This document shows, in pieces, positions 31,710 through 54,118 of a stretch of 64,000 nt of DNA; position 1 is the stretch's first letter, and the number at the start of each line of letters is the position of its first letter. The stretch is from positions 77,438 through 141,437 of the forward strand of contig JANXCV010000004.1 of the NCBI GenBank assembly GCA_025059235.1. Direction: 5' to 3'. A program made the translations under genes and the position numbers. This DNA is from Candidatus Calescibacterium sp. (lineage in GTDB: Bacteria; DRYD01). The notes under the pieces are model-generated. The model saw only the letters and a program-made list of their open reading frames with translations. It made no database searches and was not told where the DNA came from.

Positions 31710-31784
31710 GGGGACGTAGTTCAGCCCGGTCAGAACGTTGGCCTGTCACGCCAAAGGTCGCGGGTTCAAATCCCGTCGTCCCCG
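31710..31784 (+). tRNA. tRNA-Asp(GTC), CCA not encoded
   Basis: Acceptor GGGGACG/CGTCCCC, anticodon arm TTGGC-CTGTCAC-GCCAA, T-loop GGTTCAAATCC, discriminator G followed by CTC. Confidence 0.97.
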
Positions 31785-31798
31785 CTCACATATACCTA

Positions 31799-32095
31799 AT
31801 GAAAGATAATAGAAAAAAAGATCATAAAAATAAGCAAGATAACCAAGATAAACAAACAAAAGAACCAAAAAAAGACGTAAAAATAGTCAAGGATTTCCTG
31901 GAAACTGAAGGAGAAGTAGTAGAAGCTCTGCCTAACGGAGTATTCAAAGTAAAGCTCGATAATGGTAATACTGTAATAGCACACCTATCCGGAAAAATGA
32001 GAATAAATTTCATAAAAGTCTCTGTCGGTGATAGAGTAGTAGTACAACTATCCTTATATGATTTAACAAAAGGAAGAATTGTATACAGAAAATAG
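31799..32095 (+). CDS. infA: Translation initiation factor IF-1 with charged N-terminal extension
   Basis: [29 protein letters not shown]....[20 protein letters not shown]. Confidence 0.95.
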
Positions 32096-32812: not shown

Positions 32813-33539
32813 AATGAGAAAAATTTATCATTCTAACAGAAACACGTTTATGATTATAAAAGACGAACCTAAAAATTTGGAATATCTAATAAGTAATATA
32901 GATGGAATCATTTTTATCGATAAAATCCTGAATAATACTGTGTTCTTTGATCTATTCAACAGGGATGGTAGTAGAGCAGAAGTTTCAGGAAATGGATTAG
33001 CTTGTTTGACCTACCTTTTATCCAAACTCTTAAAATACCAAGAATACATATTAATTAACTCATTCTTTCCCGACAAAGTTTTTTACTCCAAAGTCTTGGA
33101 AAATGAAATTATCGTTGGATTTGATTTGTCTTACGTAAGAGTTGAAGAAATAATTATTGCTTCTGACAAGATGTACAGATTGTCTATCCCAAATCCTCAT
33201 ATAGTTTTCCCCATGTTTCAATCAAAGGAAGATAGGGCTATTAAAAAGGCTGAGGAAATATACAATTATTTTAAAAAATCAATAAATGTTCATGCTTTTG
33301 ATGTATCGAGAATGTATATGTATACTTTTGAAAGGGGAGTCGGCTGGACAGAATCTTGTGGAAGCGGAGCAATTGCTTGTGCGTATATATACCAAAATCT
33401 CCTCTCAAACAACACTCAACATTTTGTACTAACCATAAGATCACAAGGAGGAGAAATAAAAATAACTATTGAAAATAATACCTATTGGATGAGTTCAAAT
33501 CCGCACGAAATACAAGAGGAATCCATCTCTATGCTATAG
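32805..33539 (+). CDS. dapF: Diaminopimelate epimerase-like protein (first catalytic Cys replaced by Ser)
   Basis: NRDGSRAEVSGNG, IPNPH and ERGVGWTESCGSGA, then SQGG. Confidence 0.75.
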   Translation: MIEMRKIYHSNRNTFMIIKDEPKNLEYLISNIDGIIFIDKILNNTVFFDLFNRDGSRAEVSGNGLACLTYLLSKLLKYQEYILINSFFPDKVFYSKVLENEIIVGFDLSYVRVEEIIIASDKMYRLSIPNPHIVFPMFQSKEDRAIKKAEEIYNYFKKSINVHAFDVSRMYMYTFERGVGWTESCGSGAIACAYIYQNLLSNNTQHFVLTIRSQGGEIKITIENNTYWMSSNPHEIQEESISML

Positions 33540-33565
33540 AAATACAAAAAGGACGGGGGTACAAG

Positions 33566-33781
33566 ATGAAAAAAGCAAAAAAAGTTAAACTTAAAACAAA
33601 AAGAAGTATCGTCAAAAGGTTTAAAATCACAGCTAAAGGAAAAATATTACACAAGCAAACTAATACCGGCTGTGGACACCTAAGAAGAAAAAAAAGTAAA
33701 GCAACTAAAAGAAGACAAAAATTGTACGTAGAAGTACCAAAATACGCATATAAAAACCTAAGAAATATTCTTCCTTTGTAG
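33566..33781 (+). CDS. rpmI: 50S ribosomal protein L35
   Basis: KLKTKRSIVKRFKITAKGKI...HLRRKKS; ATG at 33566. Confidence 0.9.
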   Translation: MKKAKKVKLKTKRSIVKRFKITAKGKILHKQTNTGCGHLRRKKSKATKRRQKLYVEVPKYAYKNLRNILPL

Positions 33782-33782
33782 A

Positions 33783-33824
33783 ATACCGCTTGTTGGGCAA
33801 AGCGGTATATAAATAGCCCAACAA
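33783..33824 (+). ncRNA. Candidate H-type pseudoknot RNA element, copy 1
   Basis: Stem 1 ATACCGCT (33783-90) with AGCGGTAT (33801-08); stem 2 TGTTGGGC (33791-98) with GCCCAACA (33816-23); linker TATAAATA. Confidence 0.6.
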
Positions 33825-33836
33825 AAAAAGGTAAGT

Positions 33837-34178
33837 ATGCAAAACGTAGATAAATCTTCCTACAGAGTTGTCTATATAACGTGCCCGAATATCAATGATG
33901 CAGAAAATATTGCCCGTATACTAGTTAACAATAGGATAGCAGCGTGTGTAAATATCCTTCCAAACGTCAGGTCAGTATACACATGGCGAGATAAAGTAGA
34001 AGAAGCAGAAGAGGTAATCCTGATAATAAAAACCGTCGAGGATAACCTAGAACTCTTAGAAGAAACCGTAAAAAAATATCATCCCTATACTGTACCTGAA
34101 ATCATATCCTGGCCCATCAAATCAGGAAATATAGAGTACTTAAAGTGGATGAATGAAGTCACAAATGTATCTGTATAA
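33837..34178 (+). CDS. cutA: Divalent-cation tolerance protein CutA
   Basis: LAACVN-like IAACVNI, SVYTW..KVEE..E and HPYTVPEI motifs. Confidence 0.93.
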   Translation: MQNVDKSSYRVVYITCPNINDAENIARILVNNRIAACVNILPNVRSVYTWRDKVEEAEEVILIIKTVEDNLELLEETVKKYHPYTVPEIISWPIKSGNIEYLKWMNEVTNVSV

Positions 34179-34719
34179 AATATTCATACTGATCCTATTC
34201 TCGCTGGTTTATGCAAACATAGAAGATGAATATAACTCGGTTTATAAAAAACTACAATACGAAAAAGGTAAATATGGAAACTCAAACAAATATGTCGATC
34301 TAACCTACGAACACCAAGGTATAAGCAACAGCATAAGACTATATATCGACAATAGCAACAACGAACAAGAATTGATTTTATGGAATCTGGATGAAAACTG
34401 GCAAAATAACAGAATTCAAGTAAGTAAAAAGGTTCAGGAATTCTGGGGATACATCAATAACTACGGAATATTCCTAATCTATAAAAGATCTGATGACATA
34501 TTTTGGAAAATATATAGGACCAATAATGGTCAAGAAATAGTGGGTGGTTTCCTTACAACCGAAGACACCATCAAAATGAAATTAAAAGATACATATTTCG
34601 CATCCTATAAGAAAGGAGTTTTCTGCTCGTTGATCTTCTACGATAACCTAGGAAAACAGAAATATACCATATACTATCTCGATATCTGGGGAAGACATGA
34701 TTTAATAACTCAAAAATGA
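34153..34719 (+). CDS. Hypothetical exported protein
   Basis: Signal-peptide-like IFILILFSLVYA; start may be ATG 34165. Confidence 0.55.
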   Translation: MKSQMYLYKIFILILFSLVYANIEDEYNSVYKKLQYEKGKYGNSNKYVDLTYEHQGISNSIRLYIDNSNNEQELILWNLDENWQNNRIQVSKKVQEFWGYINNYGIFLIYKRSDDIFWKIYRTNNGQEIVGGFLTTEDTIKMKLKDTYFASYKKGVFCSLIFYDNLGKQKYTIYYLDIWGRHDLITQK

Positions 34720-37571: not shown

Positions 37572-37573
37572 TT

Positions 37574-37611
37574 TACCGCTTGCCTAGGTGGCGGAATATA
37601 AATAACCTAGG
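37574..37611 (+). ncRNA. Candidate H-type pseudoknot RNA element, copy 2
   Basis: Stem 1 CCGCT (37576-80) with GGCGG (37590-94); stem 2 CCTAGGT (37583-89) with ACCTAGG (37605-11); linker TATAAATA. Confidence 0.6.
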
Positions 37612-37635: not shown

Positions 37636-38205
37636 ATGGACAACGACCCAAAACAAATAATAAACTCGATGAAAAAACAAATGGACGAAGCTATAAACTA
37701 TCTCATAAAGGAATATAGATCCTTAAGAACTGGAAGGGCTTCACCTTCCCTAGTTGAAGATCTAAAAGTAGAATACCACGGAGCAATAGTTCCTCTTAAA
37801 AGCCTGGCTTCCATCTCCATTCCTGATCCCAGAATGATAGTCATTCAACCATTTGATAGAGGTTCTATCTCAGCTATAGAAAAGGCCATACAAAAGTCTA
37901 ACCTCTCCCTTAACCCACAAGTAGAAGGAAATCTAATAAGAATAATAATACCTAGGTTAACCGAAGAAAACAGAAAACAACTATCAAAAGTTATCTCACA
38001 AAAAGCAGAAGAAATAAAACAATCAATAAGAAACGCAAGAAGAGATGCAATGGAAAAAATAAAAGATCTAGCAAAAAAACAAAAAGTCATATCCGAAGAC
38101 GAATCCAATCGATACCAAAAAGAAATAGAAAAAATAACAAAAGAATACCTAGATAAGGTAGAAAAACATACTGAAGAAAAAAATAAGGAAATACTAAATA
38201 TCTGA
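37636..38205 (+). CDS. frr: Ribosome recycling factor
   Basis: LRTGRASP, IQPFD, PRLTEENRK and IRNARRD motifs. Confidence 0.97.
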   Translation: MDNDPKQIINSMKKQMDEAINYLIKEYRSLRTGRASPSLVEDLKVEYHGAIVPLKSLASISIPDPRMIVIQPFDRGSISAIEKAIQKSNLSLNPQVEGNLIRIIIPRLTEENRKQLSKVISQKAEEIKQSIRNARRDAMEKIKDLAKKQKVISEDESNRYQKEIEKITKEYLDKVEKHTEEKNKEILNI

Positions 38206-53203: not shown

Positions 53204-53729
53204 AGTTTCTGAACTAGAAGAAAAGAGAGAATATAAAAGTAGAAAGAACACGGTTTTTTTACTTGTTTTTATTTCCGGATTGTTTTTCCTGGGAATATTT
53301 ATTAATAACTATATTAATCAAACAATTTTTTACGAAGATTCTAGAGTAGAATATAAAGGTTTAGTATTCAAATTACAAACTGACAAGAATAATTATCTTC
53401 AAGGTGAGAAGGTTATAATAAAGGTTATTATATATAACCCAACGAATAGAGTTATAAATATAGATTTTTTAACTTCTGAAATGGTTTATTATACTGTGTA
53501 TTCTTATGTAGATTTAGGGATAACAAAGTTTTACTATAAGGTTTGGACTAATAAACCAGTTGTACCACCTGTTCCTAAGACGTATAGGTTATCTATAGGT
53601 CCTAAGCAAACAATAAACTTAGTTAAGGTTTGGGATCAGGTTGATATGAATGGTAATCCAGTTAAGACTGGAAGGTATAAATTTAGAGTGGAATTAAATA
53701 CTCCGTATAAGTTAAGTTTATTGAAGTAG
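53178..53729 (+). CDS. Membrane-anchored BsuPI-like Ig-fold protein
   Basis: LQTDK..Y.QGEKV.I...N and WDQVDMNG.PV.TG.Y motifs. Confidence 0.6.
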   Translation: MLKPRIKHKVSELEEKREYKSRKNTVFLLVFISGLFFLGIFINNYINQTIFYEDSRVEYKGLVFKLQTDKNNYLQGEKVIIKVIIYNPTNRVINIDFLTSEMVYYTVYSYVDLGITKFYYKVWTNKPVVPPVPKTYRLSIGPKQTINLVKVWDQVDMNGNPVKTGRYKFRVELNTPYKLSLLK

Positions 53730-53818
53730 GAGGGGTGGCCGAGCGGTCGAAGGCGCTCGACTGGAAATCGAGTGTATCCCCAAAAGGGATACCGCGGGTT
53801 CGAATCCCGCCCCCTCCG
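53729..53818 (+). tRNA. tRNA-Ser(GGA), long variable arm, CCA not encoded
   Basis: Acceptor GGAGGGG/CCCCTCC, anticodon arm CTCGA-CTGGAAA-TCGAG, variable arm GTATCCC/GGGATAC, T-loop GGTTCGAATCC. Confidence 0.97.
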
Positions 53819-53827
53819 CTCTACCAA

Positions 53828-54118
53828 ATGTTTATATTAGCAGCAAAAATAACAATCTTCCTCAATGATAGACCCAAAAACCTCAAAGAAAAAAGATCCA
53901 TAATATCTTCACTCAAACAAAAATTATTCAATAAATTTAAAGTATCAATAGCAGAAATAGAAAATAATGACAAACTTCACATAACTACTCTTGGTATAGC
54001 CATTGTATCAAACAATAAAAACATACTTAATCAAACAATAAACAAAATAGAAGATTTTTTAACCAGTATTGCGAACATATGTATACTTGAAACTACAGTA
54101 GACTATTACTCACAATGA
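53828..54118 (+). CDS. DUF503 (YlxP-like) protein
   Basis: LKEKRSII.SL..KL..KF.VSIAE and LGIAIVSN motifs; ATG at 53828 (the track start lies inside the tRNA). Confidence 0.85.
   Translation: MFILAAKITIFLNDRPKNLKEKRSIISSLKQKLFNKFKVSIAEIENNDKLHITTLGIAIVSNNKNILNQTINKIEDFLTSIANICILETTVDYYSQ

What the first reader, a model, noticed from the sequence alone, without database searches (positions are those of the whole stretch)
33783..33824. Unrecognised H-type pseudoknot motif (copy 1) between rpmI and cutA
Seen in the sequence: ATACCGCT pairs with AGCGGTAT, and the enclosed loop TGTTGGGC pairs perfectly with GCCCAACA downstream, across an A-rich TATAAATA linker. This is classical H-type geometry with an A-rich loop 3. 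It is a GC-rich island in an AT-rich spacer and ends 3-4 nt before the cutA RBS (AAGG). From memory it matches no riboswitch consensus (preQ1-I, SAM-II/V, guanidine-III, NAD+-II) and no ToxI repeat. Inference: a lineage-specific cis-regulatory or nuclease-blocking RNA.
Basis: partly seen in the sequence, partly recalled or inferred. Interest (0 to 1): 0.8.

Follow-up and report, generated by a model that had tools for sequence, protein, structure and literature searches.

The report
Multicopy RNA pseudoknot before start codons
The sequence between rpmI and cutA is a real RNA pseudoknot. It is one of about 20 copies per genome of an undescribed motif that one family of hot-spring bacteria (Calescibacterium and relatives, which lack ribosomal protein S1) places just upstream of the start codons of abundant housekeeping genes, where it most likely helps those genes to be translated.

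Summary
Window 33782-33823 (+) holds an H-type pseudoknot.

It is not a singleton. The consensus is A(-4)NNW-CCGCY-[S2a]-RGCGG-WAUAnAARW-[S2b]. It occurs 18-23 times in this 1.39-Mb Calescibacterium MAG and 11-23 times in each of 10 genomes of the same family (two genera). It is absent from the sister family, and 30 other genomes give 0-1 hits each.

Stem 2 differs in every copy but stays complementary, with compensatory changes also among orthologous cutA copies. Stem 1's fifth pair is U-A, C-G, G-C or U.G and never C.A, so the fold is in the sense-strand RNA.

There is no Rfam match, no fixed promoter, no terminator and no pairing with the RBS.

The pseudoknot ends 9-22 nt before the ATG: mode 11-13 nt without a Shine-Dalgarno (SD), 17-19 nt with one. 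The genes served include S2, S4, L5, L7/L12, L31, L32, frr, tig, ssb, recA, rpoZ, acpP, fba, mdh and cutA.

The family also lacks bS1, uses SD rarely, and places tRNA genes 6-13 nt before SD-less starts. The sister family shows none of these traits.

Best reading: a cis-acting leader that promotes translation initiation. The mechanism is inferred, not shown. It is an undescribed RNA family.

The parts
33567..33781 (+). rpmI (ribosomal protein L35), the upstream gene; stop TAG at 33779-33781
   Evidence: ORF; Pfam Ribosomal_L35p, E 2.3e-11
33782..33782 (+). Conserved A at position -4 relative to stem 1
   Evidence: A in 95 of 101 copies. No other upstream position is conserved.
33786..33790 (+). 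Stem 1, 5' strand (CCGCU). In this copy it can extend to 33783.
   Evidence: CCGC is invariant in 100 copies. The fifth pair covaries: UA 60, CG 22, UG 17, GC 1, and no C.A.
33791..33798 (+). Loop 1 (U33791) plus stem 2, 5' strand (GUUGGGC)
   Evidence: It is complementary to 33816-33823. Orthologous cutA copies read GUUGGGU/ACCCAAC, GUGGGG/CCCCAC and GCUGGG/CCCAGC.
33799..33800 (+). Loop 2 (AA), the junction between stem 2 and stem 1
   Evidence: Length is 0-10 nt in the family and 0 in 36 of 101 copies.
33801..33805 (+). Stem 1, 3' strand (AGCGG)
   Evidence: GCGG is invariant, and the first base covaries with 33790.
33806..33815 (+). Loop 3 (UAUAUAAAUA), the conserved A-rich strand WAUAnAARW. 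It is expected to lie in the minor groove of stem 1.
   Evidence: Positions 8 (R) and 9 (W) were not imposed by the search pattern and are 100% R and 100% W. Length mode is 10 nt. The minor-groove role is inferred from H-type geometry.
33816..33823 (+). Stem 2, 3' strand (GCCCAACA)
33824..33836 (+). 13-nt A-rich spacer holding a weak SD, AAGG(U), at 33828-33832
   Evidence: The sequence. The spacing falls in the 11-13 nt mode of copies that lack a strong SD.
33837..34178 (+). cutA (CutA1 divalent-ion tolerance protein), the gene served by the element
   Evidence: Pfam CutA1, E 1.9e-37. The motif precedes cutA in both genera of the family.
37572..37611 (+). Second window copy, upstream of frr (ATG at 37636): CCGCU-UG-CCUAGGU-GGCGG-AAUAUAAAUA-ACCUAGG
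   Evidence: Orthologous frr copies show compensatory stem-2 changes.

Best explanation
The element is a compact H-type RNA pseudoknot. It has a 5-bp G/C stem 1 of near-fixed sequence, a free-sequence stem 2 of 5-9 bp and a conserved A-rich loop 3.

It is transcribed as part of the mRNA and acts in cis on the gene immediately downstream, here cutA. It belongs to a family of about 20 copies per genome found only in the Calescibacterium family.

The most likely function is to promote translation initiation of abundant proteins. The pseudoknot sits directly against the 5' edge of the ribosome-binding region: 9-15 nt from the AUG when there is no Shine-Dalgarno, and just upstream of the SD when there is one. 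From there it either docks on the 30S platform or holds the short A-rich start region open and in register. This lineage has lost ribosomal protein bS1 and rarely uses SD.

Shown: the structure, the strand, the copy number, the phyletic range, the position relative to start codons, the gene set, and the co-occurrence with bS1 loss.

Inferred: that it binds or positions the ribosome, and that it raises expression.
For: 1. RNA structure.
- Stem 2 is complementary in 100/100 copies, with a mean of 6.8 bp against 4.6 bp for permuted partners.
- 396 double-change cells against 121+-10 in shuffles. Covariation score is 0.613 against 0.134 shuffled and 0.04-0.15 for slid partners.
- Compensatory changes occur within 17 orthologous groups, including cutA.
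- Rare copies have a wholly different but still complementary stem 1, GCACC/GGUGC and GCGCU/GGCGC.

2. Sense strand.
- The fifth pair of stem 1 shows U.G 17 times and C.A 0 times.
- G.U extends stem 2 by 71 bp in 38 copies, against 28 bp in 20 copies for A.C. The two are equal in the permuted null.

3. Position.
- The distance from stem 2 to the ATG is 9-22 nt for most copies. The mode is 11-13 nt in SD-less copies and 17-19 nt in SD-bearing copies of genus 1.
- The upstream stop is unconstrained, from -39 to +58.

4. Gene set.
- Genes include ssb, recA, rpoZ, mdh, rpmE, fba, acpP, rpsD, frr, rplL, ilvE, acs, GH57 and cutA.
- In relatives the set also includes rpsB, rplE, rplQ, rpmF, tig, gap and ppdK. 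Those seven names were read by eye from the N-terminal peptides and not checked against a family library.
- The motif is conserved on the same genes across genomes.

5. Lineage context.
- The motif is in 10/10 genomes of the family and 0 in the sister family.
- bS1 (TIGR00717) is absent from the same 10 genomes. It is present in the sister family and in all 10 outgroups. The only S1 domains in this genome are in two open frames: one of 571 aa that also matches RNase E/G and one of 696 aa, probably PNPase (read from its size, not tested).
- SD use is low: 40% against a 20% background.
- tRNA genes also abut SD-less starts. The counts within 25 nt are 29/42 here (27 of them within 6-13 nt), 14/31 in genus 2 and 3/27 in the sister family.
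- The sister family has short strong-SD spacers before rpsD and ssb.

6. Stability.
- At 75-85 C each hairpin alone is marginal, from about -0.1 to -4 kcal/mol. The habitat is about 80-84 C (PMC4791363, PMC11696919). Both stems plus a loop-3 triplex are therefore plausibly needed for a stable fold.
Against: - No expression, ribosome-binding or structure-probing data exist.
- The link to bS1 loss rests on a single evolutionary event.
- Motif-bearing genes are not poorer in SD than the genome average: about 45% against 40%. The element is therefore not simply an SD substitute.
- The short distance to the ATG could partly reflect genome compaction.
- Strong sequence conservation of stem 1, loop 3 and A(-4) across paralogues suggests recognition by some partner. 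That partner could be a protein other than the ribosome.
- frr in one genome of the same genus lacks the element (L004), so it is dispensable at individual genes.
Confidence: 0.42

Rival explanations
1. Operator of a regulon. The invariant stem 1, loop 3 and A(-4) are the binding site of one trans-acting RNA-binding protein (a global translational repressor or activator, or a free ribosomal protein). That protein would co-ordinate synthesis of ribosomal proteins, translation factors and central-metabolism enzymes.
For: Sequence, and not only structure, is conserved in stem 1, loop 3 and A(-4) across about 100 paralogous copies, whereas stem 2 is free. The gene set looks like a growth-related regulon. 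The site lies next to the RBS.
Against: No candidate protein has been identified. The set also includes cutA, a nitroreductase, an amidohydrolase and two unknown proteins. No autoregulatory logic is evident. The conserved residues can equally be explained by tertiary contacts within the fold or by contact with the ribosome.
Confidence: 0.2
2. Processing, punctuation or stabiliser element. Like the tRNAs that abut start codons in this lineage, the pseudoknot would mark a site where polycistronic RNA is cut. It would then either remain as a protective 5' (or 3') cap or leave a short-leader, near-leaderless mRNA that needs no bS1.
For: 84% of copies follow a co-directional gene at very short range, and some overlap its stop codon. 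tRNAs occupy the equivalent position 6-13 nt before SD-less starts. Stem 1 plus stem 2 makes about 12 stacked bp, the length of a tRNA acceptor/T arm. RNase Y and RNase E/G are present.
Against: Co-directionality is no higher than the genome baseline: 84% against 76%, p=0.04. RNase J and RNase Z are not detectable. There is no CCA-like or conserved nucleotide after stem 2. Aragorn and Rfam do not call it tRNA-like. In about a quarter of copies, cutting 5' of the element would remove the upstream gene's stop codon.
Confidence: 0.2
3. Riboswitch or RNA thermometer. Under this reading a ligand or temperature stabilises or melts the pseudoknot to switch expression, as in preQ1-I or SAM-II type H-type pseudoknot riboswitches.
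For: The architecture resembles preQ1-I: a 5-bp P1, an A-rich 3' tail, and a P2 formed with the P1 loop. A conserved core could form a pocket.
Against: There is no Rfam hit even at E<=10. The roughly 30 gene families served have no common metabolic theme. Stem 2 is long and G/C-rich, and so constitutively stable. The SD and AUG lie outside the fold, and neither strand of stem 2 is complementary to the RBS (-1.75 against -2.15 kcal/mol permuted). No terminator follows.
Confidence: 0.06
4. DNA-level signal. Under this reading it is an internal promoter (with the TATA-like WATAnAA as a -10 box) or a protein-binding palindrome.
For: TATAnAA resembles a -10 hexamer. The genes served are highly expressed. 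The element often lies at the end of an upstream gene, where internal promoters sit.
Against: The CCGC-to-TATA distance varies by 10 nt (loop 6-16 nt). The T at -10 position 6 is missing. No sigma-70-like site is called. A promoter does not explain free-sequence compensatory pairing across the TATA box, nor the G.U over A.C strand asymmetry.
Confidence: 0.04

Closest known systems
Standby-site pseudoknot of E. coli tisB +42 mRNA (Romilly, Lippegaus & Wagner 2020, PMC7708055)
   Same: It is a 5'-UTR pseudoknot whose stem 2 was proven by compensatory mutations. It is needed for 30S binding and translation rather than for repression.
   Different: tisB's pseudoknot works through protein S1 and acts about 100 nt from a sequestered RBS in a single toxin mRNA. 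Here bS1 is absent, the RBS is open, the element is 9-22 nt from the AUG, and it is a conserved family of about 20 copies on housekeeping genes.
preQ1-I riboswitch aptamer (Rfam RF00522) and other H-type pseudoknot riboswitches (SAM-II, SAM-V)
   Same: The topology and size match: a 5-bp stem 1, the loop of stem 1 pairing with a 3' segment, and an A-rich 3' strand able to lie in the stem-1 minor groove.
   Different: There is no covariance-model match. Stem 2 is long, variable and does not contain the SD. There is no queuosine or SAM gene association. The element occurs in many copies per genome.
Luteovirus-type frameshifting pseudoknots (e.g. BWYV), as a structural class. This comparison is from my own knowledge.
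   Same: Both are compact H-type folds with a G/C-rich 5-bp stem 1 and an adenine-rich loop in its minor groove. Such folds are mechanically and thermally robust.
   Different: Those lie inside coding sequence, 5-9 nt after a slippery site. Here the distance from the upstream stop is unconstrained and read-through would not join the two ORFs (58 nt from stop to ATG).
tRNA punctuation and plant-mitochondrial t-elements. This comparison is from my own knowledge.
   Same: A compact structured RNA sits between cistrons, immediately before the next start codon. In this lineage real tRNAs occupy the same position.
   Different: The pseudoknot is not detected as tRNA-like. It lacks a T-loop and a discriminator/CCA. 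RNase Z is not detectable. Cleavage has not been tested.

Membership tests
H-type RNA pseudoknot (structural class) | Two helices in crossing order S1a-S2a-S1b-S2b, both supported by covariation | tested here: met
   Stem 2 has 9 of 10 pairs with double changes. Stem 1's fifth pair covaries, and rare whole-stem variants exist.
H-type RNA pseudoknot (structural class) | Loop lengths compatible with coaxial stacking: loop 1 spans the deep groove of stem 2, loop 3 spans the minor groove of stem 1 | tested here: met
   Loop 1 is 0-3 nt for a stem 2 of 5-9 bp. Loop 3 has a mode of 10 nt for a 5-bp stem 1. That both helices form at once has not been shown experimentally.
Any Rfam 15 family (preQ1-I/II/III, SAM-II/V, guanidine-III, fluoride, pistol, ribosomal-protein leaders and others) | A covariance-model match at or near the gathering score | tested here: not met
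   Only two tRNAs were found in the 64-kb window at gathering thresholds. There were no hits at E<=10 in 33500-34000.
preQ1-I riboswitch | Association with queuosine biosynthesis or transport genes, and SD inside or next to P2 | tested here: not met
   The downstream genes are housekeeping genes of many pathways. The SD lies outside stem 2, and there is no S2b-RBS pairing.
Pistol self-cleaving ribozyme | P2 and P3 helices with a G-U cleavage site 3' of the pseudoknot strand | tested here: not met
   Stem 2's 3' strand is followed directly by an A-rich spacer and the start codon. There is no Rfam hit.
S1-dependent standby site (tisB type) | Ribosomal protein S1 as the binding partner | tested here: not met
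   TIGR00717 is absent from all 10 genomes that carry the motif. The only S1 domains lie in two open frames, one of which also matches RNase E/G.
Intrinsic terminator | A G/C hairpin followed by a U-tract | tested here: not met
   No terminator-like site was found in 33300-34300. Stem 1 is followed by WAUAnAA.
Sigma-70 promoter | -35 and -10 hexamers at 16-18 bp spacing, with A2 and T6 of the -10 | tested here: not met
   No site on the + strand. No conserved upstream positions other than A(-4). Internal spacing is variable and T6 is missing.
tRNA-like structure or t-element | Recognition and cleavage by RNase P or RNase Z | not testable with these tools
   Not called by ARAGORN or Rfam. RNase Z was not found. 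A cleavage assay is needed.

The most novel reading that the evidence does not exclude
In the Calescibacterium family, which has lost bS1 and mostly lacks Shine-Dalgarno sequences, start sites may be marked by a compact, stable RNA body. This body would be either this pseudoknot or a tRNA, encoded 6-15 nt upstream of an A-rich spacer and the AUG. If so, this is a previously unknown bacterial initiation signal. It could work in one of two ways. The cis helix stack could dock where the SD duplex or S1 normally act. Alternatively, a mitochondrion-like punctuation could produce near-leaderless mRNAs.
Probability: 0.25. Interest if true: 0.9.

Novelty: new variant of a known kind. Interest (0 to 1): 0.7.

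Why it matters
A sequence-conserved pseudoknot is reused about 20 times per genome, in front of ribosomal-protein, translation-factor, DNA-maintenance and central-metabolism genes. No such element is in Rfam, and my paper searches found no description of it.

It occurs in a deep-branching hyperthermophilic lineage. That lineage has also lost ribosomal protein S1, uses Shine-Dalgarno pairing rarely, and places tRNAs directly against start codons.

If the element recruits or positions ribosomes, it would show how a bacterium selects start codons without either of the two canonical mRNA-binding devices. It would also supply a small, thermostable, portable expression element. If it proves to be a protein operator or a processing signal instead, it still defines a new regulon-scale RNA family in an uncultivated phylum.

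Tried and rejected
1. Known RNA family: no Rfam match at gathering or permissive thresholds.

2. A second identical copy: none exists. The family is recognised only through stem 1 and loop 3.

3. A promoter at the rpmI end (TAGAAT at 33779-33784). It has no -35 partner and is not called. No -10/-35 signal lies at a fixed distance in 101 copies. A start from it would also exclude the 5' strand of stem 1.

4. A special dependence on an upstream co-directional gene, or a fixed 4-nt distance from its stop. All 20 copies in this genome follow a co-directional gene, but the genome baseline is 76% against 84% for the motif. Stop positions range from -39 to +58. I dropped this idea.

5. SD sequestration by stem 2 strands: none. 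The nested 37 C fold that pairs UACC with the GGUA of the SD is specific to this copy, weak, and gone at 70 C and above.

6. A 5'-exonuclease block: RNase J is not detectable.

7. tRNA-like processing by RNase Z: RNase Z is not detectable.

8. Complementarity to the 16S 3' tail. The tail is canonical (GGAUCACCUCCUUUCU), and I saw no match to loop 3 by eye. This was not computed. A partial likeness of GCGGUAUAC to the 16S 530-loop GCGGUAAUAC was noted and judged to be chance.

10. SD depletion of motif-bearing genes: not found. The figures are about 45% against 40% genome-wide.

Full report
**What is at the site.** Window 33776-33842 reads UUGUAG-AAUA-CCGCU-U-GUUGGGC-AA-AGCGG-UAUAUAAAUA-GCCCAAC-A-AAAAAAGGUAAGU-AUG.
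- The rpmI (L35) ORF ends with TAG at 33779-33781.
- The cutA ORF starts at 33837.
- The 41-mer is unique in the window and genome.
- Rfam 15 finds only two tRNAs in the window at gathering thresholds, and nothing in 33500-34000 even at E<=10.
- No sigma-70-like promoter or intrinsic terminator is called on the + strand within 33300-34300.

**It is one member of a family.** A scan of the whole 1.39-Mb, 33% GC assembly for the same crossing-helix geometry turned up a second locus. It had the same stem 1 and linker but a different, still complementary, stem 2.
- Searching for stem 1 plus linker gave about 20 copies.
- The consensus is A(-4)-N-N-W-CCGCY-[loop 1, 0-3 nt]-[S2a, 5-9 nt]-[loop 2, 0-10 nt]-RGCGG-WAUAnAARW(N0-4)-[S2b].
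- The strict pattern CCGCY-N6-16-RGCGGWATANAA gives 18 hits here. It gives 11-23 in each of the 9 other genomes of the same family (two genera). It gives 0 in the one genome of the sister family and 0-1 in each of 30 other genomes. The reversed-pattern control gives 0 in the family.
- Record titles of close relatives identify the lineage as Candidatus Calescibacterium (Calescamantes) from hot springs. These organisms live at about 80-84 C (PMC4791363, PMC11696919).
- A relaxed scan adds two or three plausible copies whose stem 1 has a different but still complementary sequence: GCACC/GGUGC, GCGCU/GGCGC and CCUGA/UCAGG. That scan's control, the reversed genome, gave 18 hits, none with CCGC.
- The window holds two copies: this one, and one before frr at 37572-37611.

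**The fold is real, and it is RNA of the sense strand.** I collected 101 non-identical copies from seven genomes, with three further orthologous frr loci.
- Stem 2 is complementary in every copy. Its mean is 6.8 bp, against 4.6 bp when loops are paired with other copies' downstream sequence.
- I made a structure-fitted alignment (A1). On it the pair counter gives 396 cells changed on both sides, against 121+-10 in shuffles. The covariation score is 0.613, against 0.134 shuffled and 0.04-0.15 when partners are slid by 1-3 columns. Because the alignment was fitted to the structure, the permuted-partner and slid controls are the relevant yardsticks.
- Independent of that fitting, 17 groups of orthologous copies show compensatory changes. 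For cutA, this genome reads GUUGGGC/GCCCAAC. The relatives read GUUGGGU/ACCCAAC, GUGGGG/CCCCAC and, in the second genus, GCUGGG/CCCAGC.
- Four pairs of stem 1 never vary.
- G.U lengthens stem 2 in 38 copies (71 bp), while A.C does so in 20 copies (28 bp). In permuted pairs the two are equal. This asymmetry is expected for RNA of the + strand, and not for DNA or the antisense strand.

- The three extra A-U pairs that make stem 1 eight pairs long in this copy use loop-3 positions that are invariant in the family. Their 5' partners are not conserved.
- The family core is therefore a 5-bp stem 1 with a 10-nt loop 3.
- With U33791 as loop 1 and a 7-bp stem 2, the geometry is that of a classical H-type pseudoknot.
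- At 75-85 C each hairpin alone is only marginally stable, from about -0.1 to -4 kcal/mol. This fits a need for both helices, and probably for loop-3/stem-1 minor-groove contacts. That last point is inferred.

**Position in the genome.**
- All copies point towards a start codon.
- The distance from the end of stem 2 to the ATG is 9-22 nt in most copies.
- Within genus 1 it is bimodal. Copies without a recognisable SD cluster at 11-13 nt, with a purely A-rich spacer. Copies with an SD cluster at 17-19 nt. In both cases the pseudoknot sits directly against the 5' edge of the ribosome-binding region.
- This copy has 13 nt and only a weak AAGG.
- In contrast, nothing upstream is conserved except A at -4 (95/101). 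No -10 or -35 signal lies at any fixed distance.
- The stop codon of the upstream gene lies anywhere from 39 nt before to 58 nt inside or beyond the start of stem 1.
- I first thought the element might depend on an upstream co-directional gene, since 20/20 copies here follow one. The genome baseline is 76% against 84% for the motif (p=0.04), so this reflects compaction and is not a property of the element.
- The shared 4-nt stop-to-element distance of the two window copies is coincidence.

**Which genes carry it.**
- In this genome: ssb, acs, a nitroreductase, recA, rpoZ, mdh, a STAS protein, an ACT protein, rpmE, fba, a GH57 enzyme, acpP, an amidohydrolase, rpsD, cutA, frr, ilvE, rplL and two unknown proteins.
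- In relatives the same genes recur. Additional ones, read by eye from the N-terminal peptides and not checked against a family library, are rpsB, rplE, rplQ, rpmF, tig, gap, ppdK, sufC, an aspartyl/asparaginyl-tRNA synthetase, jag/khpB and others.
- This is a list of abundant housekeeping proteins, not a metabolic regulon.
- The element can be absent from an orthologue. frr in one genome of the same genus lacks it (L004).

**Tests of alternative mechanisms.**
- A switch that hides the RBS is not supported. Neither strand of stem 2 pairs with its own RBS region better than with those of other copies (-1.75 against -2.15 kcal/mol). The weak UACC/GGUA pairing in the 37 C nested fold of this copy is not a family feature and vanishes at 70 C and above.
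- A block to a 5' exonuclease is not supported. RNase J is not detectable, while RNase Y and RNase E/G are present.
- A promoter does not explain compensatory pairing across the TATA-like box, the 10-nt variation in internal spacing, the missing T6 or the strand asymmetry.
- There is no U-tract for a terminator.

**Lineage context.** I tested this.
- TIGR00717 finds only a single-domain hit of about 40 bits, in a roughly 700-aa open frame (probably PNPase), in 9 of the 10 genomes that carry the motif, and no hit in G001. It finds multi-domain S1 proteins in the sister family and in all ten outgroups.
- The only S1 domains in this genome lie in that 696-aa frame and in RNase E/G.
- SD use is low genome-wide: 40% of 331 unambiguous starts, against 20% in a control window. 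Motif-bearing genes are not poorer in SD than that.
- The anti-SD of 16S is canonical.
- Following a second note, I found that tRNA genes are placed like the pseudoknots. In this genome 27 of 42 tRNAs are followed by a same-strand ORF start only 6-13 nt away, without an SD. Within 25 nt the counts are 29/42 here, 14/31 in the second genus and 3/27 in the sister family, where tRNAs are followed by T-runs or by strong-SD leaders.
- The sister family also has short, strong-SD spacers and no pseudoknot before rpsD and ssb.
- Four traits therefore co-occur in one family: bS1 loss, sparse SD use, a compact structured RNA immediately 5' of start codons (a tRNA or this pseudoknot), and the pseudoknot family itself. 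This is one evolutionary event, so it is suggestive, not proof.

**Interpretation.**
- The best-supported reading is a cis-acting leader pseudoknot that promotes translation initiation of abundant proteins. It would do so by docking at the 30S platform or by keeping the short A-rich start region open and in register (confidence about 0.4).
- The invariant residues would be fold-internal contacts or ribosome contacts.
- Serious rivals are an operator for an unidentified RNA-binding protein (0.2) and a processing or punctuation element analogous to the start-abutting tRNAs (0.2).
- Against the punctuation reading: RNase Z is not detectable, there is no CCA-like tail, and in about a quarter of copies cleavage would remove the upstream gene's stop codon.
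- A riboswitch or thermometer, and a DNA-level signal, are unlikely.

**Comparison with known systems.**
- The nearest functional analogue is the tisB standby pseudoknot (PMC7708055). It works through S1, at long range, on one toxin mRNA.
- The nearest structural analogues are preQ1-I-type aptamers and luteoviral frameshift pseudoknots. Defining features of those families were tested and not met.
- The element is an undescribed RNA family. The kind of thing (a 5'-leader pseudoknot acting on initiation) is known. Its multicopy, sequence-conserved, housekeeping-gene deployment in an S1-less lineage is not.

**Limits.**
- There are no transcript or probing data.
- All the genomes are incomplete MAGs (71-90% complete).
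- The alignment used for pair counting was built by fitting stem 2.

Noticed in passing
whole genome G000 and relatives G001-G009, compared with G010: Ribosomal protein bS1 (rpsA) is not detectable in any of the 10 genomes of this family. It is present in the sister family and in all outgroups tested. The only S1 domains in G000 lie in a 696-aa open frame (probably PNPase) and in RNase E/G.
   Followed up: yes
window 31710-31799 (tRNA-Asp then infA) and 53729-53830 (tRNA-Ser then DUF503); genome-wide: tRNA genes sit 6-13 nt upstream of SD-less start codons of same-strand protein genes. This holds for 27 of 42 tRNAs in this genome. Within 25 nt the counts are 29 of 42 here, 14 of 31 in the second genus and 3 of 27 in the sister family. 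The arrangement resembles tRNA punctuation.
   Followed up: partly
whole genome G000: Shine-Dalgarno use is low. Only 40% of 331 unambiguous starts have an SD-like tetramer at -18..-4, against 20% in a control window, although the 16S anti-SD is canonical.
   Followed up: partly
window 31799-32095: IF-1 (infA) carries an N-terminal Lys/Asp/Asn/Gln-rich extension of about 25 residues that is not typical of bacterial IF-1.
   Followed up: no
G000 C11:245747, C11:306762(-), C11:122798(-), C11:80443(-), C22:135209(-), C24:96023, C25:14847: In these copies the upstream gene's reading frame runs into the pseudoknot and its stop codon lies inside stem 2, loop 2 or loop 3. Terminating ribosomes must therefore unfold the element.
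   Followed up: partly
G000 C25:23128-23200 (rpsD leader); also L045, L051, L055, L056, L070: Some copies have an extra small hairpin between the pseudoknot and the SD. An example is CCCCACCAAAAAGUGUAGGGG before rpsD. It may be a gene-specific (S4?) regulatory add-on.
   Followed up: no
G000 C11:226036, C22:244940, C24:76617: These are probable family members with a different but complementary stem 1 (GCACC/GGUGC, GCGCU/GGCGC, CCUGA/UCAGG). They show that stem 1's sequence is preferred, not obligatory.
   Followed up: partly
window 33567-34178: rpmI is followed by cutA rather than by rplT, so the usual infC-rpmI-rplT arrangement is broken here.
   Followed up: no
G000 whole genome: RNase J and RNase Z are not detectable, while RNase Y and RNase E/G are present (88% complete MAG). 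Most tRNA genes do not encode CCA, so the route of tRNA 3' maturation is unclear.
   Followed up: partly
G000 contigs C28 and C29 (1.5-1.7 kb): These small contigs carry rRNA fragments whose sequence differs from the main 16S copy on C22, for example in the 16S 3' end region on C29. They probably come from other organisms in the bin.
   Followed up: no
G000 C24:96077 (398 aa) and C24:254918 (237 aa): Two conserved proteins with no Pfam match carry the motif in four genomes each. They are therefore probably abundant, lineage-specific proteins of unknown function.
   Followed up: no
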